Of a stretch of DNA of 64,000 bases, positions 2,733-62,360 are shown piece after piece. Positions within the stretch are counted from its first letter, which is position 1. Every line of letters begins with the position of its first letter. The position numbers and the translations under genes are program-made. The notes under the pieces are model-generated. The model saw only the letters and a list, made by a program, of their open reading frames with translations. It made no database searches and was not told the DNA's origin. The stretch lies in IMG/VR virus record IMGVR_UViG_3300021440_000021, positions 612 to 64,611 of that record; one strand, 5' to 3'. This DNA is from a virus (taxonomy: Duplodnaviria; Caudoviricetes).

Positions 2733-3151
2733 GAAATTTAACAAGAGAAGATCAAGTAAGGGAGTTTATGAATGCTATGGGGCAAGAGACAGAAGTGGCT
2801 GCCCCTTCTGCTGCATTGCTTGAGTTTAGATACACCCTTATTATTGAAGAGGTAAAAGAGCTTGGGGAAGAAATGGCTATTGCTATGGCAGAAAGCCATT
2901 TTAAAACTGGCTTATCCGCTAAGACAAAAAGTCGTTTGTTGAAAGAACTTGCTGATGTTCAATATGTTATTTCTGGACTAGCAGAAACTTTGGGACTACC
3001 TCTCCAAGAAGCTTTCAATCGTGTCCATGCTAGTAACATGAGTAAGCTTGGTGACGATGGTAAACCTGTATATCGTGCTGATGGTAAGGTTTTGAAGGGG
3101 GTTAATTATGTCCCACCTAATATGGAAGATTTATTCCCGGAGGAAGAATGA
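2729..3151 (+). CDS. MazG-like nucleoside triphosphate pyrophosphohydrolase
   Basis: LIIEEVKEL, KELADVQYV, RVHASNMSK, RADGKVLKG. Confidence 0.9.
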   Translation: MRNLTREDQVREFMNAMGQETEVAAPSAALLEFRYTLIIEEVKELGEEMAIAMAESHFKTGLSAKTKSRLLKELADVQYVISGLAETLGLPLQEAFNRVHASNMSKLGDDGKPVYRADGKVLKGVNYVPPNMEDLFPEEE

Positions 3152-3191
3152 CCAAGTTTAAAACATTAAACAAGACAAACAGGTATTTTAA

Positions 3192-4979
3192 ATGACTGAT
3201 TACGGGCCTACACTACCGATTTCACAAGAAATTCATCAAATGAAGTATAGAAGTAAAGGAGAAAGTTTTAAGGAGTCTATGATTAGGGTGGCAGATGCCC
3301 TAAAAGATGACGAAGAGCATTACAAAGCTCTTAAAGAAATTCTTCTTGATATGCGCTTTCTACCTGCTGGCCGTGTTCAGTCTGCTATTGGTTCTCCTCG
3401 TGTTGTAACAGCTTTCAACTGCTTTGTCAGCGACACTATTAAGGACTCTATGGAGTCTATTATGGCTGTAGCTACGCAAGCAGCAGAGACTATGAGACTT
3501 GGTGGTGGCATTGGTTATGACTTCTCCACCCTACGACCTCGTGGTGCCCTTATCAAGAGCCTAGACACACGTTCTAGTGGGCCTATTGCCTTCATGGACA
3601 TCTATGATGCCATCTGTAAGACTATTGCCTCTGCTGGCCATCGTAGAGGCGCTCAGATGGGTGTTCTTCGTGTTGATCACCCAGACATCGAGGAGTTTAT
3701 TAGGGCAAAGACTAACAGTGATAGACTGACACAATTCAACATCTCTGTTGGCATCACTGATGAGTTTATGGATGCTGTATTAGAAAACAAGATGTTTGAC
3801 CTTCGTTTTGAAGGGGTTGTCTATAAACGAGTGAGTGCTGTTGCTTTGTGGAATGAAATTCTTCGTTCTACATGGGATTGGGCTGAACCGGGGGTTCTCT
3901 TCTTAGACACGATTAATAAGAAGAATAACCTACATTATTGTGAGACCATTGCAGCCACGAATCCTTGTGGGGAACAGCCTCTTCCTCCTCATGGAGCCTG
4001 CCTCCTTGGTTCTATGAACCTAACCAAATACATCAATCCACATATTGTTAATAATGAAGATATTAATAGAGGATTTGATGAACAAGATGGCTGGGAATTT
4101 GACTATGGATTGTTTGTAGACGATGTTCGTCATATCGTCAGAGCAATGGATAATGTCATTGATGTTACAGTGTACCCACTAAAAGAACAAGAGAAGGAAG
4201 CTAAAAGCAAACGTCGTATGGGTCTTGGCCTCACAGGTGTGGCCAACACAGGAGAAATCCTTGGATATTCTTATGCCTCACCATCGTTTAAAAAATGGCT
4301 TGAAGAAGTTATGATGGTGTTTAGAGATGAAGTGTATTATGCCTCTATTGAACTGGCTAAAGAAAAAGGAGCTTTCCCCCTTTTTGACACTGAGTTTTTA
4401 AATTCTGGTTTTGCTAAAACCCTGCCAGAAGACCTTCGTGATGCTATTCGTGTTCATGGCATTCGTAATAGTCATCTTCTTTCTATTGCCCCCACAGGAA
4501 CTATTAGCTTATCTGCTGACAATATCTCTTCTGGTATTGAGCCTGTGTTCTCTCATGGCTACGACAGGACCATTCAAACATTTGATGGTCCTAAAGTTGA
4601 GCGTGTAGAAGATTATGCCTATCGTGTCTATGGAGTTAGGGGCAGAACTGCTGATGAAACCCCTGTGCAAGACCATGTAGCTGTCCTCACCCTTGCTAGT
4701 AAATATATTGACTCAGCTTGTTCTAAAACTTGTAATGTTGGAGCCGATGTTACATGGGAGGAGTTTAAAGATGTCTATATGCAAGCTTGGCTTGGTGGGG
4801 CCTCTGGCTGCACTACATTTAGAGCAGCAGGTAAACGTTATGGCATTCTTAACGCCTCTGCTGTAGAAGATGTGGCTGTAGAGGAAGTTAAGGAGGAAGA
4901 CACCTTCGTTGATGAAAAGGATGTCATTGGTGGTGCTTGCTATTTTGATGTTGCAACAGGAAGACGCCACTGTGAATAA
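3192..4979 (+). CDS. nrdJ: class II (adenosylcobalamin-dependent) ribonucleotide reductase
   Basis: FNCFV, RRGAQMG, ATNPCGEQPL, SIAPTGT; no NrdB gene in window. Confidence 0.9.
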   Translation: MTDYGPTLPISQEIHQMKYRSKGESFKESMIRVADALKDDEEHYKALKEILLDMRFLPAGRVQSAIGSPRVVTAFNCFVSDTIKDSMESIMAVATQAAETMRLGGGIGYDFSTLRPRGALIKSLDTRSSGPIAFMDIYDAICKTIASAGHRRGAQMGVLRVDHPDIEEFIRAKTNSDRLTQFNISVGITDEFMDAVLENKMFDLRFEGVVYKRVSAVALWNEILRSTWDWAEPGVLFLDTINKKNNLHYCETIAATNPCGEQPLPPHGACLLGSMNLTKYINPHIVNNEDINRGFDEQDGWEFDYGLFVDDVRHIVRAMDNVIDVTVYPLKEQEKEAKSKRRMGLGLTGVANTGEILGYSYASPSFKKWLEEVMMVFRDEVYYASIELAKEKGAFPLFDTEFLNSGFAKTLPEDLRDAIRVHGIRNSHLLSIAPTGTISLSADNISSGIEPVFSHGYDRTIQTFDGPKVERVEDYAYRVYGVRGRTADETPVQDHVAVLTLASKYIDSACSKTCNVGADVTWEEFKDVYMQAWLGGASGCTTFRAAGKRYGILNASAVEDVAVEEVKEEDTFVDEKDVIGGACYFDVATGRRHCE

Positions 4980-5869: not shown

Positions 5870-8800
5870 TTAGTTATTTTCAAATCTACCCTTCATGAGC
5901 TTTTCATTCAGCTTCACCCACTCTTGGATTTGTTGAATCTCATAAAGAGACATATCTTCTACAGGATGGTTAATCCCCAAAGACTTCTTCGCTTCAATAA
6001 TGTCATTAGGTGAAAGCACAGAGAGCTTGTTTCTCTGATATGCCAACCTATCTGCTTCGTCCCCAATCAACCCAGAATTAAGGCTGGTTTGAACCTCCGT
6101 CCTTGCATAACTGAGCATCTTATCAACCATCTTTGCCTTTTGTGTTTTAGACCCATTGATAAACATAGGGTCTGCAAGCATGGCTTTTGCTTTTCTGTCT
6201 AAGATGGGGAAGATGGCTCTATTGACAAAGTCATCATATTCAGGATCAGAAGTGAAGCTGTCCATCCTAAATGGAGGTTTATCCACCATACCTAATAGAG
6301 TGTTGATAGAAGTTCTTGTTTGTTCGTATGGGGTTCCAAGAGAAGCCATAACAGGATTACCAGATTTGATGTCCCCGTATTGAGTGGCAGACCTCTTTGG
6401 CTCACCAAACATACGTTTTCCATTTGCATCGGGTTGTCCAAGGATTAAGCTGAAGAAATTGTTTGTGTAACGAGAAGCTTGTTCGATAACAGCATCAAGA
6501 CCTTGAGCCTGTCGTTTATCAATAGCAGCCGTATTCACAACCCCTTTAGCATCCAGATAAGCCCCTGCAAGATCATTTAAAGGATCAAAAGGACGGGTTA
6601 AGCCACTGGCAATACCACCCAAACTCTCAACGACCTTACCAATCAAATCTGTAGCTACAGAACCATCTGTGTCTTCTTCAGTTTGCATATATTGGCCAAG
6701 AGCCTTTACAAACTCAAAACTACCAGCATCTTTTAGCGCAGAGGGAACAGCAAGCTGTCTCCCAAGATCAAGCCAAACTTGCTTGTCCAAGGGTTCACCC
6801 TTAAACTTGGCAGCAAGCATACGCCCCATAATATTATAAAGACCCAGAGGAAACATGTTGTCCACACGTTGGACACTACCATCTGCATCTCGTTCTTCAT
6901 ACCACTGAAGACCTTCCTCCTGCTTTTTTGCCTCACGGATAGTGGTGAGGCCAAGTGCAGTGGAGCCAATAATGGCGCGAGACAGCTTCTCCCCAATATC
7001 TAATCCACGTTCACCAGCCATAATCTTAGAGACAGATTCTACAAGTCCAAAGGGACTGTGTCTCCAAGTGAAGGCCAACATACTATTTACAAACTGACCG
7101 AAAGGCCAGATAAAGCCAACAGCAGCATTGTGAGAAAGTTCTTGAGACTGTTTTGCTAATTGAGTGATACCAAGATTTTTTCTCCAACCACCCATTTTTC
7201 CAAATGTTTCGGAGAATGTGTCTTGTTGTAGCATTTTAGTGGCATGATCCCACATATCATCTGTAATCTCATGCACCATATTTTTATTTACAACCTCATC
7301 AATACCCATACCAAGATGAAGTCTTGTTTGCTTATCAAGTTCACTTAATCCAGAGATAGCTTTTGTCATAACATCTTGAGCATGAACGAAGGAAATCTGT
7401 TGTGCTCTCTTCAGATAATGCTCTGTAGCCCTGATACCAACCCTTTCAGGGTTGACACCAAAATCTTTAGGACTTTTATTCATTTCCACCCCTTGGAAGA
7501 AGTGGTGATGAATGTCTCTCTGAATATTCTTAGGGGCATTATCAACAAGATCACTAAACCCCTTCACTGTTGTAAACGGGTCTACAGCAATCCTCGTCAT
7601 ATACTTCATGTTTTTCCAAAGGGCATTAGCCTGTCCAATAGAAAGGTCTCCACCTTCCATATTAAACATTCTTTTAGCCTTACCAAGCCCATAAAGAGAA
7701 GCCATTTGTAGAGCTTGAGAGGGCACCTTAATCGCCTGCATAACTCCCCAACCTTTGATGTTGGTAATAGATGTAGCAGGAGTGGAGATCAAAGCCCTTT
7801 TCCAAACAGTTTGCCAATACTTTAAGGTTTCTTTGTCAACAGCCTCTTTCTCAATATTACCTCCAAGACCGTCTATAAGACCTTTGGAGGCTTGTTTATT
7901 TGAGATAGTTACGTTTTGGAAGGCGTCCATAAACTTAGAGGCATCAGACAGCCCCTTAAAGTTTTGGCCTGATTGACGGGCAACATGTGCAAAAACTTCG
8001 GTGACTTGAGAGAATGTAACTCCAAAAGGCTCAAAAGCGGTGTCAATTTCTTTTCTTGCTTCATCATCCATACCTTCTGCAAATCTAACCAAACTTTCAG
8101 AGAAGCTATTGGCATCCTCTGCTCTAATATCTGCCCCATTTTTTTGAAGCATGGTGATAAAACTGTTTGGGTCATTTTTATTGGTGAACCAATTGAACAC
8201 AGCTTGACGAAGCTCTGGGTTCTTTGCCAGCTCTTCTCCATCATTGGCCATCTTAATCCAATCCACTTGATTTTGGATTAATTGTCTTTGGATGTCCTTA
8301 GCCACTTTCTTTCCAGCACTAGAAGCTCTAGCTTTTCTGGCAATGTTAATCTTCTCGCCAGCTCCTTCTAATCCAGTAGCACCCTTAATAGGTTTAAAGT
8401 GGATGGAGGAGGGAATGGAAGCCAATCCCCCACCAAGCAATGTCCCAACAATATTTTCAGCATAGCTAAAATCGTGTTGAGCACCAGCTTCCATCATAGT
8501 GTTTTGATAAAGAACATCTTGGACAGATGATAAAGCAGCACTAGAAGCGAAGTTTAGGGCAAGAGCTTTTTTTGCACTAACTTTTGCAGCAGCTTTTACC
8601 ACCTCTGCATTAGCTGTTTTAATGGCGGCTTTACTTGCCCCTTTAGCAGCAAGTTCTCCTGTAACATTTTTAACAGCTTGTTCAGCGAGAAGTTTAATCC
8701 CCTCTTTTGAAGCTGCTGTAGCAGCCCTGCTACTAAAAATCTTACCAATTCCAAAACCAATGTATGTAGTGGGGTCTGACACTAACCCAGAAACATAGTC

Positions 8801-37788: not shown

Positions 37789-38748
37789 CGGTTTCAGTGT
37801 CAAGCTTAGGTTTGGCGGCTCTTATACAAGCGCCCTATTGTCAAAGGGCTGTTACTTTACCGTTGCCTGTTGTCGTGGCATGGCGCAAGCTATGTCGGGC
37901 ATAGATGGAACGGTGGGGAGAATAACAGTCTGACGGATAGGCCACACGCAAGCGGTGTTGACGCTTGCCTATGCTATCAAGCCCTTTCGGGCTTGTAAAA
38001 CCGATAGCATGTGATTGACTGACAATCAATCTATGTGAAAGGGTTTGGCATAAGACGGGAGCCTGTCCCAAGAATCAGGCAAACAATCCGCATGTGTGAA
38101 TGGCCAATGATTAGCCCGCACCATATGGTGAAGGGATTATTCCCGATAGTAATGGGCAATGCAATAGGCATTGTCTGGCGCAAAGGTTTGCAGCATATGG
38201 AACATTAGACAACAAGGCGCTAGGGATAGCGTCTCTAAGTCTTTTGTGGATTGAAGAAAGCTTAACGAGTCACCTAGCCTGATACCAAGACACGAAAGCT
38301 AGGTGATTTGATTAATCTTTCTTGAAAGGAAAAGAAATGTTCTATAAAGAAATCACGGGCGGGGTGCGAGTCCGCGTCACCGAAGATCAATGGGCTATTG
38401 ACAGACATGACAAGGGTTATGTCCAGATCATTGCCCAGCCCGGCCTAACCATCTACAGGTTGATCTAACCACATCGAATCATGACAGGAAAAAAGATATG
38501 AAATGGTGCGTTGTCGTCGTATATAGGGACGGACGGGGGGAATCTTTACCTTTCCGTAGTGAAAAGGCTGCAATGAAAGTGGCTTTGATTAAGCTCAATG
38601 TTGAGCTTAAAATGGCTTATGCTGGAATTGCTGAAATTGACTCTGTTGTCGTAAGACCCATGACTACTTGGTAAAACATAGCGGGCAGGACATTAGCAAT
38701 AGTGTCCTGTTAGATGTGTTTTTGCATCAATCAACAAGAGGAAATATC

Positions 38749-39303
38749 ATGGCTGTTAAAGCAGAAAAAAGCCTGTTTGTGCAGGCTGGTGACTTCTGGA
38801 ATAAGCACGTCAAACTGGATAAAGAAGGGCTTGTCCTTTTGGACAAGACCATCCAACGTGTTGTCGAATATCGGGATTGGGACGCCTTGTCGCGTTTCAT
38901 TTCCCGTGCTGGCATGGACAAACCCAAGGTAGCCCGTATTGTTCGCGCCGCTTTTGGTGACTCGCTCACCTATAAGACTGACACCAGCCATAGCTCCGGC
39001 GGTGTCATCAAGATGAAATGGCCTGCTGACCAGAAATTTGTCCTTCTGAATAGCTATGCCCATGTGATGAAGGCTGTTGCAGAGGGCAAGGCTTTCAATG
39101 ATGCGGGTTTGCAGAAGGCCATTAAACCCATCAAGAAGGAACCGAACAAAGACAAGGCCGAATTGCTTGCGGCATACAAAACCCGCGCCGAAAAATGGGC
39201 CAAGGAAAATGGCATCACCATTGGTGCCATGATTGCCGCATTGCAAGCCAAGCCCACGAATGAAGCGGGCAGCAATGGCATTGTCGTTCATAAGGCTGCC
39301 TAA
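38749..39303 (+). CDS. early hypothetical protein
   Basis: GAGG SD, C-ending codon bias. Confidence 0.7.
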   Translation: MAVKAEKSLFVQAGDFWNKHVKLDKEGLVLLDKTIQRVVEYRDWDALSRFISRAGMDKPKVARIVRAAFGDSLTYKTDTSHSSGGVIKMKWPADQKFVLLNSYAHVMKAVAEGKAFNDAGLQKAIKPIKKEPNKDKAELLAAYKTRAEKWAKENGITIGAMIAALQAKPTNEAGSNGIVVHKAA

Positions 39304-40964: not shown

Positions 40965-41186
40965 ATGACAGCCGAGGTCGTTAATCTCGAAACTGTCACG
41001 CGGCTTGACCTGCCCGCCGAAAGAATTTTGCAAGCGGCGCTGGCTGCTGGCTTAGAAAGCGCAATCGTCATTGGATACGACGCGGACGGCGATGAATACT
41101 TTGCATCGTCCTTGGCTGATGGCGGCGCTGTTATTTGGCTGCTTGAGCGCAGCAAGCTGCGGCTTTTGCGGATGGCAGACGAATGA
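40965..41186 (+). CDS. hypothetical protein in a high-GC patch
   Basis: VIGYDADGDEYFASS...WLLE family; GC-rich codons. Confidence 0.65.
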   Translation: MTAEVVNLETVTRLDLPAERILQAALAAGLESAIVIGYDADGDEYFASSLADGGAVIWLLERSKLRLLRMADE

Positions 41187-41220
41187 TCAGAACCACCGAA
41201 CAGATGCGCGAGGCCGGGGA

Positions 41221-41604
41221 ATGATGATTTTCGACCCGCCCCTGAACTCGCCGGAATACCGCGCAGCCCTACGAAAGCTGACCGGTGAACCGACAGAACC
41301 GCGTCAGGATTGGCCCGTTGATCGGGGCGAACTGATTGCCCGGCACCGCGAGATTGCCAGCATGGCGAGAAAATGGGCCATCGAGAACGAAAACAAGGCG
41401 CGGGAACTGGAAATCCGCGACAACCTCGACGCTTCCAAGAAGCACGACGCTGCGGACGACTGGCTGATCGAGAACCGCAAGGAAATGGCGGCTGCGATCA
41501 TCAAGCTGGTGGAGGCACTAGAATGGTATGATGACCCGTCAAGTCAAGGGGATGTTGCCCGCGCCGCCCTAGCTGCCGCAAAGGAGAAAATCAATGACCG
41601 TTGA
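41221..41604 (+). CDS. hypothetical protein in a high-GC patch
   Basis: LVEALEWY...ARAALAA motif typical of temperate-phage small ORFs. Confidence 0.55.
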   Translation: MMIFDPPLNSPEYRAALRKLTGEPTEPRQDWPVDRGELIARHREIASMARKWAIENENKARELEIRDNLDASKKHDAADDWLIENRKEMAAAIIKLVEALEWYDDPSSQGDVARAALAAAKEKINDR

Positions 41605-41995
41605 TTGCACTAACCCCAACAAACTATGTCTTCGCGACATGACTGATGCCCAAATTGCCACTATTGTACGATATTTTATCCACAATAAGGTGGAGGAGTA
41701 TATCGAGAATAAATGGTATACAGGTGATGAGATTTTGCCTGATAATATTTATCGTATAGCCCCAACCAAGCTTTCAGTCAATTGGGATCATCTGGCCGAT
41801 TGGGTAGTGTGTATTGCTTTAGATAGTAACGGGGCTGCATGGTGTTATGATTCTGTCCCCACTCTTAGTAAGACTAATTGGATTGGAGATTGTATGGGGA
41901 TGGGTTATAAGATTAATTTCCTGTCATCGTATCAGCGTGGTACATGCGATTGGAGAGAAAGTTTAGTCTTTCGCCCCGGAAAGGAACCAAAATGA
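41594..41995 (+). CDS. hypothetical protein
   Basis: AAGGAG SD; DWRESLVFRP C-terminal motif. Confidence 0.65.
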   Translation: MTVDCTNPNKLCLRDMTDAQIATIVRYFIHNKVEEYIENKWYTGDEILPDNIYRIAPTKLSVNWDHLADWVVCIALDSNGAAWCYDSVPTLSKTNWIGDCMGMGYKINFLSSYQRGTCDWRESLVFRPGKEPK

Positions 41996-42854
41996 AGAAA
42001 GTTAAGGAGGTAAGTGATGCGTGACTTTCTTACTAGCGGTCGGTTTGGATTTTTAGCCGGTTTTGTGTTGGGCTTGATCCCTATGTTTATAGCAGGGATG
42101 TACCTAGAAAACGACCATTGGCATCTAGAACTCATTCAGCGGGGCCTAGCACAATACTGCCCTCTGACGGGTGAATGGGCTTGGAAGGGAGAATGCAAAT
42201 GAAAGATCAAAAGAAATGGGAATGGGATTTGTCCCGTTATGTTACAACTCTTGCCAAGCTTCGTATGCTGGAAGAGCGTTGGCCTCAACATAAAGTGATC
42301 TTCAAACACTTGAAAGAGGAAAGTGAAGCAGATGCTTAAAAAACCTCTTCCCCCCATCTTCTCTGTAAGACCGGGAACCAATTGCACATTCATCACTATC
42401 TATGATGAAGACGAAGATAGAGTTGCAACCATCACCTTGAACGAAGACCAAGCATTGCAATTGATTGGTCAAATCTCCCAATCCATCTTGAAGGAATATA
42501 CAAATGTTCGTTAAATGGGCCGATGCACAAAAAGCTGGTCGTTCTCCCCTTTGCCTTGGTCGCTCTGCTGAACGTAACAAACGTAAGCAAGAACGCACCA
42601 ACACCAATCGTATCTATCGTGCTGAACTCCATCGTGAGAAAGTGAACAGCCGAGGTGATGCAAATGTGGTGCAAGAGAAGATTGCAGAGATTAGCAAACG
42701 TAAATAGGCCCGTAGACTTCATAGGAGGGCCGCTAGAGGGCCTTCTCTTGTTTTTAGCTACATGGGTAGCCTAAACACAATACAACGCTGTAGGGGGCCT
42801 TTTTAGGCCCCTTCCTGTCATTGCCCCCTTGGTGGAATTGGTAGACACAACAGA

Positions 42855-43286
42855 TCAACTATTTTTCCTCCTCCTCCAAGTTGGAGTTTGTGAGTGACAA
42901 TTTGGGCAAAGCAATAGTAAATTAGTTTTAGAATTATTATTTCTATTACCATCTATGTGTTCGAGTTCTAAGACTAATGGTCGATGTAGCCATAAAGATA
43001 ACCCACAAACTTCACAGCTATTTCCACGGTCTTTTATAAGTCTCTTTTTAATTGAGGACGGCTTCGTTAGTTCTTCGTAAGAAACAAGTTCTTTACCCCT
43101 ATTATGAGACTGACCTAAAAAATGAGAGGTGTCTATATTGAACTTATCTAAGTTCTTAATCAAGTTGTTGTAATTTCCTCCTGCGGCAACTAATCCCATT
43201 TGTCGCAAACAATCAGCATAACTATTACTATTTTCGACTATAATTTTTAAAATTTCTCTGGTCCATCTTGTATATTTACGTTTCAT
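42855..43286 (-). CDS. HNH homing endonuclease
   Basis: CEVC...LELEHIDGNRNNNSKTNLLLLCPNCHSQT; stop codon overlaps U32 of the split tRNA. Confidence 0.9.
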   Translation of the reverse strand: MKRKYTRWTREILKIIVENSNSYADCLRQMGLVAAGGNYNNLIKNLDKFNIDTSHFLGQSHNRGKELVSYEELTKPSSIKKRLIKDRGNSCEVCGLSLWLHRPLVLELEHIDGNRNNNSKTNLLLLCPNCHSQTPTWRRRKNS

Positions 43287-43311
43287 AATATAACCTTGCG
43301 TATATAATAGT

Positions 43312-43388
43312 GGAGGCATAGCCCAATTGGCAGAGGCATCCGGTTTAAACCCGGTAAAGTTAGGGTTCGAATCCCTATGCCTCTACCA
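43312..43388 (+). tRNA. tRNA-Leu(UAA), short variable loop, nested inside the split tRNA-Leu
   Basis: GGAGGCA/UGCCUCU acceptor, loop UU-UAA-AC, GGUUCGAAUCC T-arm, A73, CCA. Confidence 0.85.
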
Positions 43389-43511
43389 TTATATACGTAG
43401 AAACAAGGTTAAAAAAGACAAACAATTAAAAATAAAATCTGTCGATTAATTCATGCCGGTTCGAGTCCGGCAGGGGGCACCAAGTTAGATGTGTAGACAG
43501 AAATTGAGATT

Positions 43512-43584
43512 CGTGGGGTAGCTCAGTTGGTAGAGCAGACGACCGATAATCGTCAGGTCTCAGGTTCAACACCTAACTCCACGA
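43512..43584 (+). tRNA. tRNA-Ile(GAU), atypical or degenerate
   Basis: canonical D-arm, GACGA/UCGUC stem with loop CC-GAU-AA (C33), T-stem mismatch, no encoded CCA. Confidence 0.65.
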
Positions 43585-43822
43585 GCGATGCAGGCCCGGT
43601 GAGGGGTAGAAAAGGCAGGGGGTGTGATGGTCACAACAACCAAAGCATGGACCCAATGCGCTCCGGGTGTAGAAAGACCCCCTCACACCAAGTTAGATGT
43701 GAAGCGGTGAATGCTAAAGGTCATACCCGGCCTGAGTAACCGTAATTGAGGTCTCCACGGCAAGGAGTCTGGTGTGTCGAGTCGCACCCACATCTAAATC
43801 ATTAAGTAGAGAGGAAATAAAC

Positions 43823-44053
43823 ATGCCTTGTTATGAGCCACCAATGAGTTATGAAGAGCGTAGACGCTATAGCCCGGAAGGTTTAAATGAAAAAGAGTTA
43901 GAGGCTGTTCTTTGTGGTGTGCTCACCACTGTTGGTGCTGAAGTTTTTGATTATGTAAACTGGAAAGAAGTTGGTGTTCCTAAAGACTTTGCAGAAAACT
44001 GGTGGAAAGCCCATCAAAAGAAAGATGCAAAACGTAGAAAGAAAGAGAAGTGA
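43823..44053 (+). CDS. hypothetical protein
   Basis: GAGGA SD; MPCY...LC...WWKAHQKKD family. Confidence 0.65.
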   Translation: MPCYEPPMSYEERRRYSPEGLNEKELEAVLCGVLTTVGAEVFDYVNWKEVGVPKDFAENWWKAHQKKDAKRRKKEK

Positions 44054-44152
44054 AATGTGGGAAATGTTTCAAATGTTTTGTGTTGGTTGGTTTATTGGTG
44101 ATGTAGGGTTTCATCTAGCTAGATGGACTGGGTTTTAAGGGGAAGTTAATAT

Positions 44153-44229
44153 GCACCCGTAGCTCAACTGGAAAGAGCAAGAGATTTCTAATCTCTGGGT
44201 TGGGGGTTCGAGTCCCTCCGGGTGCTCCA
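44153..44229 (+). tRNA. tRNA-Arg(UCU)
   Basis: GCACCCG/CGGGUGC acceptor, AGAGA-UUUCUAA-UCUCU, GGUUCGAGUCC, CCA. Confidence 0.92.
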
Positions 44230-44245
44230 TCCATAGGAGAGTAAA

Positions 44246-44653
44246 ATGTATCTGCATGATTGGTCTTCTAAAGAAGACATGATGAAAGATTTTGTAATTG
44301 AGAATTGGTGGGATAACAACCGAGATTTAACAGAAAAAGAAAAAGAAGAATTTAAAAATGTAAATGTTCTTTTGGCCAGTTATTCTTCTCAAAACTACTT
44401 AGGTGATGCTTTTGTATTATTCATAGATAAAGAAAATGGAAAACTATATGAGGTAAATGCTAGTCATTGTTCTTGCTATGGATTAGAAGAGAAATGGGAG
44501 CCAGAAGAAACAGATATTGAATCTCTTAAGCATCGTCTTGAGAAAGGTTCTCTTGGAGAAGAGGAATATTCAGGGAATATTTTTAAGAAAGAGCTTAGAG
44601 AAGTTCTGGAAAGACTTCAGACAAATGGTAAGTCTTTGGGGGATTATCTGTAA
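44246..44653 (+). CDS. hypothetical protein with tag-like C-terminus KSLGDYL
   Basis: YEVNASHCSCYGLE family motif. Confidence 0.7.
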   Translation: MYLHDWSSKEDMMKDFVIENWWDNNRDLTEKEKEEFKNVNVLLASYSSQNYLGDAFVLFIDKENGKLYEVNASHCSCYGLEEKWEPEETDIESLKHRLEKGSLGEEEYSGNIFKKELREVLERLQTNGKSLGDYL

Positions 44654-45152
44654 TATTTAGATAAGCAAAGGGGTGTAAAATGTTTTGGGTAATCTTTGTA
44701 ATTCTTCTTCTTTTGGTTTTTATTCCATTTTTCTATCTTCCGTTTTTGACTGTTCTTATTATTTTGATGCTAATTACTGTTTGTGCTTTTTTCGCACTTC
44801 TTATCTCGATGATTATCAAAGATGAAGACTTTTTTTGATACGGTTAGGTATTCAGGAAAATATAAGAGGGTAGAATGAGTGCAGATTGGTTTGACTACGT
44901 AAACAAGGCGAGGGAAAACAATGGGCCAATGGAAAGCAAAAAGCCTGAAAACGTACGGAGCTATTCAACTCCTGTGCGATCTGGATCAAAACCTCCATGT
45001 GGGGACGTGGATTAATCATCCACATTATGGGAATGTTTGGCAATTGAATACAGGGCAGTTTATGCACGACAATCAAATTGCCTTCTACAATGAAATTACA
45101 ATACCTCCTGTGGTGGAGGTGATTGAACACATCATGTATTCAGGAGAAGAAA

Positions 45153-45419
45153 ATGCGTAAATTATTTTTATCTGCGTCCCTGTCATTGTTTGCTCTTCCT
45201 CTCTATGCGGAAGGAGAAAATTGTGGCCCAACCCAAGCTGTAAAACAATTCTTTGAACAGCAGTTTGGAGAGAGGGTAGTCAATACTGGGGCTACCCCTG
45301 ATGGTGTTTATGTATTTAGTTGGATTGAAAACCCTCAAACCAAAACCTTTACATTGCTTGTAACCAAAGGGGAAACCACTTGTGTTATTGGCGGGGGAAA
45401 ACTTTTGGAGATGGGTTGA
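45153..45419 (+). CDS. small secreted protein
   Basis: signal peptide, NCGP...TCVI. Confidence 0.6.
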   Translation: MRKLFLSASLSLFALPLYAEGENCGPTQAVKQFFEQQFGERVVNTGATPDGVYVFSWIENPQTKTFTLLVTKGETTCVIGGGKLLEMG

Positions 45420-45685: not shown

Positions 45686-45915
45686 TGGTCAGATTTAACC
45701 CCGGTGATGTTGTTAGACGGAAAAAACAACATCAAACCTCTTCTTTTTGGGTTCATAATAGGCACATTGGAAGAGAAAGAGCAGGAGCAAATTTTGTAGT
45801 TTTAGGTCTTACAGATCAAGGCTTAATTCTACAAGGTGTTAATGGGGGATTTGAATCATCTTATTTTGAACTTGTTGATGAAAGAAAGATCACTTCACTA
45901 GAGGATTATATGTAA
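45685..45915 (+). CDS. tagged small protein, FKVGD family (ends ITSLEDYM)
   Basis: shared N- and C-terminal motifs. Confidence 0.75.
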   Translation: MVRFNPGDVVRRKKQHQTSSFWVHNRHIGRERAGANFVVLGLTDQGLILQGVNGGFESSYFELVDERKITSLEDYM

Positions 45916-46307
45916 TGACTAAACGTCTTTTTGTCTATGGCACACTGAAACAAGGCTACAGCAACAATGTCCTTCTTCGTGGAGCTAAATTTCTTGGTCC
46001 TGCAATCACCAAGAAAAATTATGTTCTTTTTAATTGTGGCTTCCCCAAGGCCGTGACCTTGTCTTTGGATAAGGAAGCTTACCCTATGCTTCCTGTCATT
46101 GGTGAGTTGTATGAAGTGGAAGACAATCACATTCGTTCTTGTGATCAGCTTGAAGGACATCCTGATTGGTATCGTCGTGATGTGATTGAAGCAACTTTGC
46201 TTGCCACGAATGAAACCTTTGACACCAATATTTATGAGATGAATGAGTGGGTGGGAAATCGTCTCACTTGTAAGGTTGTTAATGGGGCTTATGAATGGGA
46301 TCGCTAA
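45915..46307 (+). CDS. gamma-glutamylcyclotransferase (AIG2-like)
   Basis: LFVYGTLKQG, GELYEV, DQLEGHPDWYRR. Confidence 0.9.
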   Translation: MTKRLFVYGTLKQGYSNNVLLRGAKFLGPAITKKNYVLFNCGFPKAVTLSLDKEAYPMLPVIGELYEVEDNHIRSCDQLEGHPDWYRRDVIEATLLATNETFDTNIYEMNEWVGNRLTCKVVNGAYEWDR

Positions 46308-60974: not shown

Positions 60975-62360
60975 ATGCGACCGTTAATCGACGCTGATGT
61001 GCTTTAGCTTTTATACGAAATTGGCTTCTCGTCAGAACGTATGGAACCTAATGAGGAGGGCGAGCTTGTGCTCGTCCCTGCCTCTTGGGAATTTGCACAA
61101 GAACTATTTGATCAAAAGATCAAATTAATTTGCGATGAGGTGAGAGCAACAGAAAGCCCGTTGCTCTTCCTCACTAATACACCGCGTATTAACAAACTAA
61201 GAAACAAAGAACGAAAAAGAAATGACGAACCTGAAAAGATTTATGTCGAAAATTTTAGGCATGAGGTGGCGAAAGAGAAAGAATACAAAGGCACACGTAA
61301 AGCAACCAAGCCTTTCCACTTCTACAACCTCCTCAACTATGTTCTTGCCAATTATGATGTTCATGTTGACGAGCAGGGGCTAGAAGCCGATGATGCAATG
61401 TGTATATATCAAATTCAGATTGCTAAAGAGTATGGGGTAAAAGTCCCTTTTCATGGGGGGTATTTTCTTCTTGATTATGAAGACTGGCTAAAATACAATA
61501 AGACTACCTTTATCCAAGATAATAAAGGGTATCTAGTTAATGACACAGGGAAAGACCTTACAAGAAAAGTTTGGCTTCTCCACAGAGAGATTATGGGCAA
61601 TCCTGAAGGCTTTGTTGTAGATCATATAAATGGGAACACTTTAGACAATCGTAAATACAATCTGCGCATTTGTACTACCAAAGAGAACGTTCGAAACTCT
61701 AAACCACAAGAGGGTTCTTCTGCATATAAGGGGGTCTCTTGGGATGAGTCAAGAGGTAAATGGCTTGCGGGTATAAAAGTAGATCGTGAGCACATTTTCT
61801 TGGGAAGATACGATTTAGAACTAGATGCTGCCAAAGCATATGATGATGCCGCAGAAACTCATTTTGGGGTATATGCAAGGTTAAATCTAAAACCCCCTTA
61901 TACCAAACCTTATAAAGAGACTATTATTTGTTCTAGAGACAAAGATGTTAGACAGTGTCCTCTTTGGCATTATAGTTGGGAATGTGGAAAACAAGCATCT
62001 GTTGGTCCTATTTTAGTAGAACCTCTTGGAGAATTAGTTCAAATTAATCCTAAGAAAATCTTTGGCACAGGTGCTAAGTTCTTTTACTATCAACTTCTCG
62101 TTGGTGACACCGTAGATAATATTGGTGGTATCAAGGGGAAAGGACCAGCTTTTGCATTCAATCTCCTTAAAGACTGTGTATCAGAGAGACAGTGTTATGA
62201 GTTTATCGCCCATGTCTATCTGCAACATCATGGAGATGAATGGAAGACTAAATTTAGAGAGCAGGCAGACCTGCTTTATATGATTAGAGAATTAGATGAG
62301 AAAGGAGAGAAAATTAAATGGAAGCCCCCGCAATTGGCAAAATCAGAGATATCTGGTTAA
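60975..62360 (+). CDS. 5'-3' exonuclease with an in-frame HNH-AP2 insertion; TAG at 61005 in the N-terminus
   Basis: LIDADVL, YKGTR, EADD, SRDKD, GDTVDNIGGIKGKG motifs. Confidence 0.85.
61430..61915 (+). mobile_element. HNH-AP2 homing endonuclease domain embedded in the exonuclease
   Basis: LHREIM...VVDHINGNTLDNRKYNLR...N; SSAYKGVSW...KW...LGRY...AAKAYDDAA...FGVYARLN; boundaries approximate. Confidence 0.85.

What the first reader, a model, noticed from the sequence alone, without database searches (positions are those of the whole stretch)
42823..43482. HNH endonuclease plus replacement tRNA-Leu(UAA) inserted into the anticodon loop of a resident tRNA-Leu(UAA)
Seen: the resident tRNA-Leu stops at ...ACAGA-U (42855) and resumes at UAAAA-UCUGU (43433), about 577 bp later; the two halves pair perfectly in the acceptor and anticodon stems. 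The insert holds an antisense HNH gene, whose TGA stop uses the tRNA's U32 position, and a complete tRNA of different sequence with the same UAA anticodon (43312-43388). Direct joining gives a 6-nt loop, one base short. The insert has no terminal G and no recognisable group I core, so it does not look like the known tRNA-Leu(UAA) intron. Inference: this is a non-splicing homing cassette that destroys its target tRNA and supplies a functional, cleavage-resistant substitute.
Basis: partly seen in the sequence, partly recalled or inferred. Interest (0 to 1): 0.85.

Follow-up and report, generated by a model that had tools for sequence, protein, structure and literature searches.

The report
Nuclease-plus-spare-tRNA cassette splitting phage tRNA-Leu
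A selfish DNA-cutting-enzyme gene that carries its own small leucine tRNA sits inside this phage's original leucine tRNA gene and has broken it, at the spot where related phages carry a self-splicing intron with the same enzyme.

Summary
A class II tRNA-Leu(UAA) gene is split into a 5' half (42823-42855) and a 3' half (43433-43482). The 577-nt insert holds an intact antisense HNH gene (42855-43286) and a complete 77-nt tRNA(UAA) (43312-43388).

No ribozyme is present. Rfam found none at E<=10, and HMMs built from homologous phage tRNA-Leu introns gave no hit in the 64-kb window. Joining the halves leaves a 6-nt anticodon loop.

The HNH belongs to a large phage family (phrog_10822) that lives in tRNA arrays. 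Among the 80 loci kept from 587 relatives, 13 have it inside a true group I intron at U34|A35 of tRNA-Leu. Others have it free beside tRNA-Leu(UAA). L028, L007 and L025 show a nested short tRNA with outer tRNA remnants and no ribozyme; L031 and L006 keep a 5' remnant beside a full-length replacement tRNA-Leu.

The nested tRNA belongs to a covarying short-arm tRNA(UAA) family with E. coli-type leucine identity marks. A related phage (G001) has such a tRNA as its only tRNA-Leu(UAA) found. Another relative (L290) has an intact class II gene and no HNH in its 8.3-kb locus.

Verdict: a non-splicing homing cassette with a replacement tRNA. Cleavage, resistance and charging are untested. This scan has noted the same layout in other genomes. 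I found no paper describing it.

The parts
42823..42855 (+). 5' half of the resident (outer) class II tRNA-Leu(UAA) gene: acceptor 5' strand, D arm, anticodon-stem 5' strand and one loop base (T42855)
   Evidence: Half-tRNA HMM hit at 42823-42854, E 6e-7. 31 of 32 positions identical to the intact tRNA of L159.
42855..43286 (-). HNH homing-endonuclease gene, 143 aa, antisense to the tRNA array. Its TGA stop overlaps T42855.
   Evidence: ORF. phrog_10822 E 2e-40. Pfam HNH 18.7 bits, below the 21.4 cut-off. C91, C94, H110, N122, C127, C130 and H131 are invariant in 12 homologues.
43291..43311 (.). Left arm of the inverted repeat that encloses the nested tRNA. It contains the HNH ribosome-binding site (AAGG on the minus strand).
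   Evidence: pair I1: 23-nt arms 43299-43321 and 43375-43397, 91% complementary. Fold of 43286-43415: -48.6 kcal/mol, z -6.3.
43312..43388 (+). Nested 77-nt short-variable-arm tRNA(UAA) with A73 and encoded CCA. It is the presumed working replacement and the only UAA-anticodon tRNA found in the window.
   Evidence: ARAGORN. Rfam tRNA 57.3 bits. Family alignment A2: 17 of 20 pairs have compensatory changes, and TAA is invariant.
43389..43432 (.). 44-nt spacer holding the right arm of the inverted repeat (43389-43410) and an A-rich tail. It ends in A, with no terminal G.
43433..43482 (+). 3' half of the outer tRNA-Leu(UAA): TAAAA of the loop, anticodon-stem 3' strand, long variable arm, T arm, acceptor 3' strand, A73 and CCA
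   Evidence: Half-tRNA HMM hit at 43439-43482, E 2.3e-7. 88% identical over 50 nt to the intact tRNAs of L159, L291 and L292.

Best explanation
This is an intron-less homing cassette. It consists of a free-standing HNH endonuclease gene and a divergently oriented short-arm tRNA-Leu(UAA) gene. [quoted passage not shown]

Shown by sequence: the cassette has no ribozyme, so the outer gene cannot be restored at the RNA level and is a recent pseudogene. Its two halves are the remains of the target.

Inferred: in a mixed infection the HNH cuts or nicks intact class II tRNA-Leu(UAA) genes near the anticodon. The break is repaired from the cassette-bearing genome, using the tRNA halves and flanking DNA as homology. 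The HNH gene and its tRNA are thereby copied in.

Also inferred: the disrupted outer gene and the divergent nested gene are not cut. The nested tRNA is processed from the tRNA-array transcript, charged by the host LeuRS, and supplies UUA/UUG decoding.

The inverted repeat around the nested tRNA would sequester the HNH ribosome-binding site in long antisense transcripts. This may keep HNH translation low.
For: 1. The anatomy is confirmed.

2. No ribozyme.
- The Rfam gathering scan of the window found only 4 tRNAs.
- The Rfam scan of 42500-44500 at E<=10 listed 14 matches, none an intron family.
- nhmmer HMMs of the two core blocks of the homologous phage tRNA-Leu introns hit both blocks in 13 of the 80 loci (E 1.4e-11 to 7e-24). 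They hit nothing in the window at E<=10 with filters off.

3. The family's home site.
- 587 relatives of the HNH were confirmed in viral contigs, and 80 were kept.
- In 13 loci the HNH lies inside a group I intron cut exactly at gaCTT|AAAAt and ending in G. It is sense in L014, L047 and L049, and antisense in L029 and L046.
- Of 89 HNH copies in the 80 loci, 83 were classed with a tRNA gene (within 150 nt), a group I core or a tRNA-half remnant (within 400 nt).

4. The same architecture elsewhere, without a ribozyme.
- L028 has an outer class II tRNA-Leu split at CTT|AAAA, an antisense HNH whose TAA stop overlaps U33-U34, and a nested 76-nt tRNA(UAA).
- L007 and L025 have a nested short tRNA and HNH with one canonical junction each.
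- L031 and L006 have a 5' tRNA-Leu remnant abutting the antisense HNH stop, plus a complete, different tRNA-Leu(UAA).
- L003, L004, L005, L006 and L031 form a clade with the window's HNH (SH-aLRT 98, quick tree).

5. The HNH ORF is intact and all catalytic and zinc-binding residues are present.

6. The nested tRNA looks functional.
- 17 of 20 stem pairs covary across 10 family members; TAA is invariant, and A73 and the AGT ending at U48 are read from the printed rows.
- The D loop AATTGGCAG matches the outer tRNA's AATTGGTAG.
- For E. coli LeuRS, A73, A15-U48, G18G19 and A20a matter, and the long arm does not (passages of PMC9976931).
- The relative G001 (terminase 77% identical) has a free 79-nt short tRNA-Leu(UAA) as the only tRNA-Leu(UAA) ARAGORN found in it, and no HNH.

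7. An intact class II tRNA-Leu(UAA) with the same variable-arm type sits about 900 nt upstream of the syntenic ligase cluster in the more distant relative L290. No HNH was found in that 8.3-kb locus.

8. Logan contigs of X1 bridge both junctions.
Against: - No enzyme activity, RNA or homing data exist for this HNH or for any close relative that I could find.
- No insert-free allele of this same phage was recovered. G001 and L290 are relatives, not the same phage with an empty site.
- The left junction is not the exact intron site. One loop base is missing, and the base next to ACAGA is T, not C.
- The HNH scores below Pfam's curated cut-off (18.7 against 21.4 bits).
- No convincing promoter for the antisense HNH was found: 6 promoter-like sites against 3.4 +/- 1.7 in shuffles.
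- Several family members sit directly beside intact class II tRNA-Leu(UAA) genes (15 copies). So not every such gene is a substrate, and the true recognition site is unknown.
- The 80 loci are the best-scoring of 587, not a random sample.
- The tree is the quick version; the careful search did not finish.
Confidence: 0.75

Rival explanations
1. The cassette is a decayed intron. It descends in place from an HNH-bearing group I intron of tRNA-Leu(UAA) of the L029/L046 type with an antisense HNH. The ribozyme was lost after a tRNA(UAA) gene was captured inside the intron. On this reading it was not a free-standing HNH+tRNA module that invaded an intact gene. The present state is the same; only the history differs.
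For: - The insert lies within 1-2 nt of the canonical intron site.
- L028 has both junctions exactly at CTT|AAAA, L025 has the left junction there and L007 the right.
- Antisense-HNH group I introns exist in the family: L029 and L046.
- On the tree, group I and non-intron states are intermixed; the starred branches force at least 4 changes.
Against: - The window's HNH clusters (SH-aLRT 98) with L003, L004, L005, L006 and L031. None of these has a group I core, and the clade does not include L029 or L046.
- No remnant of either core block is in the window at E<=10.
- The HNH stop abuts the 5' half directly, so the whole 5' core would have had to be deleted to the base.
Confidence: 0.15
2. The insert is removed at the RNA level, and the outer tRNA-Leu is functional. 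Removal would be by a highly degenerate or novel self-splicing element, or by protein enzymes that cut at the nested tRNA and religate.
For: - The exon halves are still perfectly complementary.
- A U precedes the insert, as at group I 5' splice sites.
- The nested tRNA would attract RNase P/Z cuts inside the insert.
Against: - No intron model hit.
- The insert ends in A, not G.
- After subtracting the HNH gene and the tRNA, about 69 nt remain (43287-43311 and 43389-43432), too little for a ribozyme.
- Joining gives a 6-nt loop lacking one of C32/U33.
- RNase P/Z cuts would not fall at the exon borders.
Confidence: 0.03
3. The nested element is not a leucine-decoding replacement. It could serve as an RNA-level decoy or resistant substitute against host tRNA-cleaving defences, or mainly as a structural or regulatory element for HNH expression. 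On this reading the phage simply tolerates loss of its tRNA-Leu.
For: - The short arm departs from the class II form expected for bacterial-type tRNA-Leu.
- The gene is enclosed in a long inverted repeat that contains the HNH ribosome-binding site.
- Phage tRNAs that counter tRNA-cleaving defences are reported (abstract starts of PMC13096335 and bioRxiv 10.1101/2023.03.15.532788, seen in the listings only).
Against: - The family keeps a full cloverleaf with compensatory changes, an invariant UAA anticodon in a 7-nt loop, A73 and U48.
- G001 carries one as the only tRNA-Leu(UAA) found in it, with no HNH.
- A decoy role and a decoding role do not exclude each other.
Confidence: 0.07

Closest known systems
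Group I (IC3-type) intron in the anticodon loop of tRNA-Leu(UAA) of cyanobacteria and plastids (recalled), and its phage versions carrying this HNH family (seen here in 13 loci)
   Same: It interrupts the same gene at the same place in the anticodon loop, within 1-2 nt. The same HNH family is the passenger, and in L029 and L046 it is also antisense.
   Different: There is no ribozyme, no terminal G and no exon restoration. The function of the broken gene is replaced by a second gene inside the insert, not by splicing.
T4 SegB, a free-standing GIY-YIG homing endonuclease in the T4 tRNA gene cluster (PMC2330249, abstract read)
   Same: It is a free-standing nuclease gene inside a phage tRNA array. 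It recognises tRNA-gene sequence and spreads itself together with neighbouring tRNA genes in mixed infections.
   Different: SegB belongs to a different nuclease family and recognises the T-stem-loop motif. It lies between tRNA genes and does not split one. No dedicated replacement tRNA nested in a broken target is described in that abstract.
Intron-less homing by free-standing phage endonucleases such as T4 MobE (PMC2790892, listing and abstract start only). SegF and SegG are recalled, not read.
   Same: An HNH-type free-standing nuclease with co-conversion of flanking DNA, needing no intron or intein.
   Different: Those elements sit between genes or beside their target. Here the element sits inside the target RNA gene and compensates for the damage with its own copy.
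Integrase-driven elements that integrate into tRNA genes and carry a copy of the displaced tRNA 3' segment (recalled; PMC3706429 passages show a tRNA-Leu attB)
   Same: The logic is the same: the element uses a conserved tRNA gene as a landing site and brings sequence that keeps tRNA function.
   Different: The mechanism differs (site-specific recombinase). That mechanism restores the same gene by a partial duplicate. Here the old gene stays broken and a complete, differently shaped tRNA is supplied.

Membership tests
Group I intron (tRNA-Leu(UAA) type) | Conserved catalytic core (P3-P9) | tested here: not met
   The Rfam gathering scan and the E<=10 scan gave no intron hit. Family-specific core HMMs hit 13 loci but nothing in the window at E<=10.
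Group I intron (tRNA-Leu(UAA) type) | Terminal G at the intron 3' end, and exon joining that restores a 7-nt CUUAAAA loop at U34|A35 | tested here: not met
   The insert ends in A. Joining gives 6 nt, whereas 144 of 149 intact genes have CTTAAAA. True introns in L029, L046, L047 and L049 read gactt|...G|aaaat.
Free-standing homing endonuclease element (intron-less homing) | Intact nuclease ORF with catalytic residues | tested here: met
   143-aa ORF. The HNH His/Asn/His residues and four Cys are invariant among 12 homologues. phrog_10822 E 2e-40.
Free-standing homing endonuclease element (intron-less homing) | Sporadic presence or absence among related genomes at a conserved target gene | tested here: met
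   G001 and L290 are syntenic relatives with a tRNA-Leu(UAA) and no HNH found. The family occurs in unrelated phage contigs, always in tRNA arrays.
Free-standing homing endonuclease element (intron-less homing) | Site-specific cleavage of the nuclease-less allele, immunity of the carrier allele, and biased inheritance | not testable with these tools
   This needs enzyme assays and phage crosses.
HNH endonuclease (Pfam PF01844) | Score at or above the curated cut-off | tested here: not met
   18.7 bits against a cut-off of 21.4, E 0.0019. The motif residues are nevertheless present, and PHROG HNH families match strongly.
tRNA (nested gene) | Cloverleaf scoring above the Rfam RF00005 threshold, with covariation in relatives | tested here: met
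   57.3 bits against 29. 17 of 20 pairs have compensatory changes in 10 sequences.
Bacterial-type tRNA-Leu (nested gene) | Long variable arm (class II) | tested here: not met
   The variable region is 5 nt. The gene works like, but is not shaped like, canonical bacterial tRNA-Leu.
Bacterial-type tRNA-Leu (nested gene) | E. coli LeuRS identity set: A73, A15-U48, G18G19 and A20a | tested here: met
   These are read from the sequence and alignment A2. The rule is taken from passages of PMC9976931. Charging itself was not tested.
Class II tRNA-Leu(UAA) (outer gene) | Complete cloverleaf once the insert is ignored, and similarity to intact genes | tested here: met
   ARAGORN intron mode. Half HMMs. 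L159 matches at 31 of 32 and 39 of 45 positions.

The most novel reading that the evidence does not exclude
HNH plus short-arm tRNA-Leu(UAA) is a distinct, widespread class of 'cut-and-replace' mobile element. It invades the conserved anticodon region of phage class II tRNA-Leu genes without any splicing, because it brings a minimal, nuclease-immune, LeuRS-competent tRNA. Over time the outer halves and then the HNH decay, so the element drives turnover of canonical long-arm tRNA-Leu into a short-arm form in phage lineages. G001 would be an end state. That would make these tRNAs a natural class-I-shaped leucine tRNA working with a bacterial LeuRS.
Probability: 0.35. Interest if true: 0.8.

Novelty: new variant of a known kind. 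Interest (0 to 1): 0.62.

Why it matters
Homing endonuclease genes are thought to survive inside essential or useful genes only when hidden in a self-splicing intron or intein. This locus and its relatives suggest a third solution: break the target and carry a replacement.

It also marks the probable DNA target of a very large, uncharacterised phage HNH family, namely the anticodon region of tRNA-Leu genes.

One enzyme family is seen here in three states: intron-borne, free-standing and nested-cassette. That makes the evolutionary traffic between mobile introns and free-standing nucleases directly testable.

The short-arm tRNA(UAA) family is also of interest in its own right. It is a candidate natural leucine tRNA without the long variable arm, used with bacterial translation machinery.

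Tried and rejected
Empty-site allele of the same phage: not found.
- The viral contigs pattern across the joined loop plus the variable arm gave 0 hits.
- The exact 32-nt 3'-half pattern in metagenome contigs gave 0 hits. The tools warn that records very near the window may be left out.
- The neighbour proteins 44246-44653 and 41594-41995 gave no tblastn-confirmed relatives.
- DNA of 41000-45200 found nothing in five relatives reached through the terminase.

Read laying, hints only.
- In X2, X3 and X4 flanking sequence is covered at low depth, and no contig covers 42984-43382.
- One X2 contig starts exactly at 43433, and one X4 contig ends at 42822.
- These fit an insert-free variant but equally fit low coverage and graph breaks at shared tRNA sequence. 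I do not count them as evidence.
- The joints listed in X4 come from other organisms' tRNA-Leu genes.
- No RNA holder was listed.

Rfam.
- The general Intron_gpI model missed the true introns that carry the ORF: 0 hits at gathering in 20 loci.
- It gave one weak hit (L029, 30.2 bits) at E<=1 in 11 loci. I therefore built family-specific HMMs.

ARAGORN intron mode gave 22 predictions enclosing an HNH in 21 loci. Several are spurious; L003, for example, pairs halves of two separate intact tRNAs. I kept only those backed by core or half HMMs or by reading the junctions.

The PDB profile search with the HNH alignment gave only marginal hits (best E 0.009), so it is not used.

The promoter scan was not above chance.

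Literature. Searches found no paper describing an HNH plus replacement tRNA nested in a split tRNA gene, or an HNH-bearing group I intron in a phage tRNA-Leu. These were full-text searches of the held library only. Supplements are closed and were not seen, and subscription journals are largely missing. So 'not in print' is provisional.

I considered and rejected assembly chimera, because the junctions are bridged in X1 and the architecture repeats in L028. I also rejected chance complementarity of two unrelated fragments, because 12 of 12 stem pairs match and both pieces match tRNA-Leu half models.
Full report
WHAT IS THERE

The window is positions 612-64611 of a 64,611-nt IMG/VR virus record rated 100% complete. 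Pfam places it among podovirus-like phages: it has a SU10-type portal, a T4-type terminase, a family A polymerase and a ribonucleotide reductase.

At 42823-43482 lies a tRNA-Leu(UAA) gene in two pieces.
- The 5' piece (42823-42855) carries the acceptor 5' strand, a typical tRNA-Leu D arm, the anticodon-stem strand ACAGA and one T.
- The 3' piece (43433-43482) starts with TAAAA, followed by TCTGT, a long variable arm, a T arm, the complementary acceptor strand, A73 and CCA.
- The acceptor stem pairs 7/7 and the anticodon stem 5/5.

ARAGORN with introns allowed reports one 84-nt class II tRNA spanning exactly these coordinates, with a 576-nt insert. HMMs of class II tRNA-Leu halves hit these two places and nowhere else in the 64 kb (E 6e-7 and 2.3e-7).

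The closest intact gene in my loci is in L159. It matches 31 of 32 positions of the 5' half and 39 of 45 of the 3' half, and includes a compensatory change in the acceptor stem. In 144 of 149 intact class II tRNA-Leu(UAA) genes the loop is CTTAAAA. The window therefore lacks one loop base and reads T where C is usual.

THE INSERT

On the minus strand there is an HNH gene at 42855-43286. Its TGA stop shares T42855 with the tRNA half. Its likely start, MKRKY, is preceded by AAGG.
- It matches PHROG HNH family phrog_10822 at E 2e-40.
- It matches Pfam HNH only below the cut-off, 18.7 against 21.4 bits.
- In an alignment with 11 homologues the two CxxC pairs and the His, Asn and His of the HNH motif are invariant.

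On the plus strand at 43312-43388 there is a complete 77-nt tRNA with anticodon UAA, a 5-nt variable region, A73 and encoded CCA. It is enclosed by an inverted repeat that extends the acceptor stem. The fold of 43286-43415 is -48.6 kcal/mol with z -6.3. The repeat includes the HNH ribosome-binding site.

ARAGORN finds no other UAA-anticodon tRNA in the window.

NOT AN INTRON

Rfam at gathering thresholds finds only four tRNAs in the window. A permissive scan of 42500-44500 at E<=10 lists no intron family.

The general group I model also missed genuine ORF-bearing introns in related loci. I therefore built two nhmmer profiles from the core blocks of those introns.
- They hit both blocks in 13 of the 80 loci, with E from 1.4e-11 to 7e-24.
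- They hit nothing in the window at E<=10 with filters off.

The insert ends in A. After the HNH gene and the tRNA are subtracted, about 69 nt remain.

THE HNH FAMILY AND ITS HOME

There are 587 tblastn-confirmed relatives in viral contigs, of which the best 80 loci were kept. These 80 are a biased sample. They lie in phage tRNA arrays (60 of the 80 scanned). I classified the 89 HNH copies in the 80 loci:

| Class | Copies |
|---|---|
| With a group I core nearby | 16 |
| Beside an intact class II tRNA-Leu(UAA) | 15 |
| Beside an intact class II tRNA-Leu(UAA), with an orphan half | 1 |
| Beside a short tRNA(UAA) | 7 |
| Short tRNA plus an orphan tRNA-Leu half | 4 |
| Only an orphan half | 8 |
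| Beside another tRNA-Leu | 5 |
| Beside another tRNA | 27 |
| No tRNA within 150 nt | 6 |

In L014, L047, L049 (HNH sense) and in L029 and L046 (HNH antisense), the tRNA-Leu(UAA) is interrupted exactly at gaCTT|AAAAt by an intron ending in G with recognisable core motifs. By the established logic of intron-encoded endonucleases, this family's ancestral target is the intron-less tRNA-Leu gene around the anticodon. That is inference, not assay.

THE SAME ARCHITECTURE ELSEWHERE

- L028 (HNH 42% identical in alignment A1) has an outer class II tRNA-Leu split at CTT|AAAA. Its antisense HNH has a TAA stop overlapping U33-U34. A nested 76-nt tRNA(UAA) shares long identical stretches with the window's nested tRNA. 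The 603-nt insert has no room for a ribozyme.
- L007 has a 5' fragment, a short tRNA(UAA) and a sense HNH that reads into a 3' half beginning AAAATCCGT.
- L025 has a 5' half ending CTT, followed by the HNH and a short tRNA(UAA).
- L031 and L006 have a 5' tRNA-Leu remnant abutting the antisense HNH stop, and a complete, different class II tRNA-Leu(UAA) diverging from the HNH start.

On a quick maximum-likelihood tree of 79 distinct sequences, the window's HNH sits in a clade (SH-aLRT 98) with L003, L004, L005, L006 and L031. The careful search did not finish. The nested state needs at least four origins on well-supported branches. The window is the most complete example I saw, because both halves of the victim survive.

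IS THE NESTED tRNA A WORKING tRNA-Leu?

Ten short tRNA(UAA) genes from these loci align to one cloverleaf.
- 17 of 20 pairs have compensatory changes.
- The TAA anticodon is invariant; A73 and the AGT ending at U48 are read from the printed rows.
- The D stem has 3 bp.
- The D loop (AATTGGCAG in the window) is nearly that of the outer class II gene (AATTGGTAG).

A review states that for E. coli LeuRS A73, A15-U48, G18G19 and A20a matter. It also states that the anticodon and long arm do not, and that truncated tRNA-Leu lacking the long arm stays active (PMC9976931, passages of the leucine-identity section). The nested tRNA has all of these marks. Charging is still untested.

RELATIVES OF THE PHAGE

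G001 is a 64,448-nt record whose terminase is 77% identical. It is syntenic on both sides of the variable region. Between the homologues of 38668-39303 and 45915-46307 it has a single free 79-nt short tRNA-Leu(UAA), and no HNH.

L290 is a metagenome contig that shares the downstream ligase cluster at 27-50% protein identity. It has an intact class II tRNA-Leu(UAA) with the same variable-arm type about 900 nt upstream of that cluster. No HNH was found in the 8.3-kb locus.

So a tRNA-Leu(UAA) at this place is old in the group. It occurs intact, as the short form alone, and, in the window, as a broken long form with the short form inside. I did not find the same phage with an empty site.

ASSEMBLY

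Logan contigs of run X1 (labelled freshwater metagenome, holding 0.77 of the sampled words) bridge the left junction (42657-42918, 1 mismatch) and the right junction (43295-43702, 0 mismatches). X1 may be the source sample, so this supports the join but is not independent.

HOW IT MOST LIKELY WORKS

Shown:
- the anatomy;
- the absence of a ribozyme;
- the intact nuclease ORF;
- a conserved tRNA family;
- the recurrence of the layout;
- the family's link to the tRNA-Leu intron site.

Inferred:
- The HNH cuts intact class II tRNA-Leu(UAA) genes of co-infecting phages near the anticodon.
- Repair copies the cassette in, using the tRNA halves and flanks as homology.
- The carrier is immune because its target is split and its spare tRNA differs in the stem sequences around a shared TTTAAA.
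- The spare tRNA keeps UUA/UUG decoding.

The one-base deficit and the T-for-C at the left junction fit either imprecise repair or later decay of a dead gene.

Origin is open. A free-standing HNH+tRNA module may have invaded, which the tree favours. Alternatively an intron may have lost its ribozyme after capturing a tRNA, which the precise junctions in L028, L025 and L007 favour.

COMPARISON AND NOVELTY

The locus works like a homing endonuclease element. It fails the tests for a group I intron.

The nearest characterised system is T4 SegB, a nuclease in a tRNA cluster that recognises tRNA-gene sequence and drags tRNA genes along (abstract). SegB does not split a tRNA gene or nest a replacement.

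My literature searches found no description of this layout. Supplements and most subscription journals were not searchable.

Earlier notes of this scan describe the same kind of cassette in other phages, and HNH-bearing introns in phage tRNA-Leu. I re-derived both points from my own loci and do not count those notes as evidence.

I rate it a new variant of a known kind, with interest 0.62.

Noticed in passing
window 43478-43496 and 43686-43704; 43599-43798: There is a 19-nt direct repeat (CACCAAGTTAGATGTG.AG). It starts at the CACCA end of the split tRNA and occurs again after a tRNA-like element that has a GGTGAGGGG/CCCCTCAC stem followed by ACCA. The element could be a degenerate tRNA duplicate with the same trailer.
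   Followed up: no
L014 and L015, about 3031-3468: In these two large phage contigs the codon at the family's invariant Trp (W99 of the window's HNH) reads TGA in the intron-borne HNH (...T E tga Q G...). I read this by eye against alignment A1. It suggests that these phages read TGA as Trp.
   Followed up: partly
L283 (G001) 7582-7660, minus strand: A relative of this phage carries a free 79-nt short-variable-arm tRNA-Leu(UAA) with A73 and CCA and no HNH nearby. It is the only tRNA-Leu that ARAGORN found in that 64-kb record.
   Followed up: partly
L009 3001-3706: The HNH gene is immediately followed by a tRNA-Leu whose halves (3426-3456 and 3659-3706) are separated by an ORF-less stretch of about 200 nt that hits the group I core HMMs. 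The nuclease sits beside the intron, not inside it.
   Followed up: no
L007 19-3477: There are three copies of the HNH family within one 6.4-kb array made almost entirely of tRNA-Leu genes with five different anticodons. Two of the copies are paired with short tRNA(UAA) genes.
   Followed up: partly
window 61041-62360: A 5'-3' exonuclease ORF also carries HNH_3 and AP2 domains in the same frame. This is a second, unrelated nuclease insertion in the same phage.
   Followed up: no
L023 1806-2343; L078 4812-5217: tmRNA genes lie inside phage tRNA arrays next to HNH-bearing tRNA-Leu introns (Rfam 66 and 110 bits).
   Followed up: no
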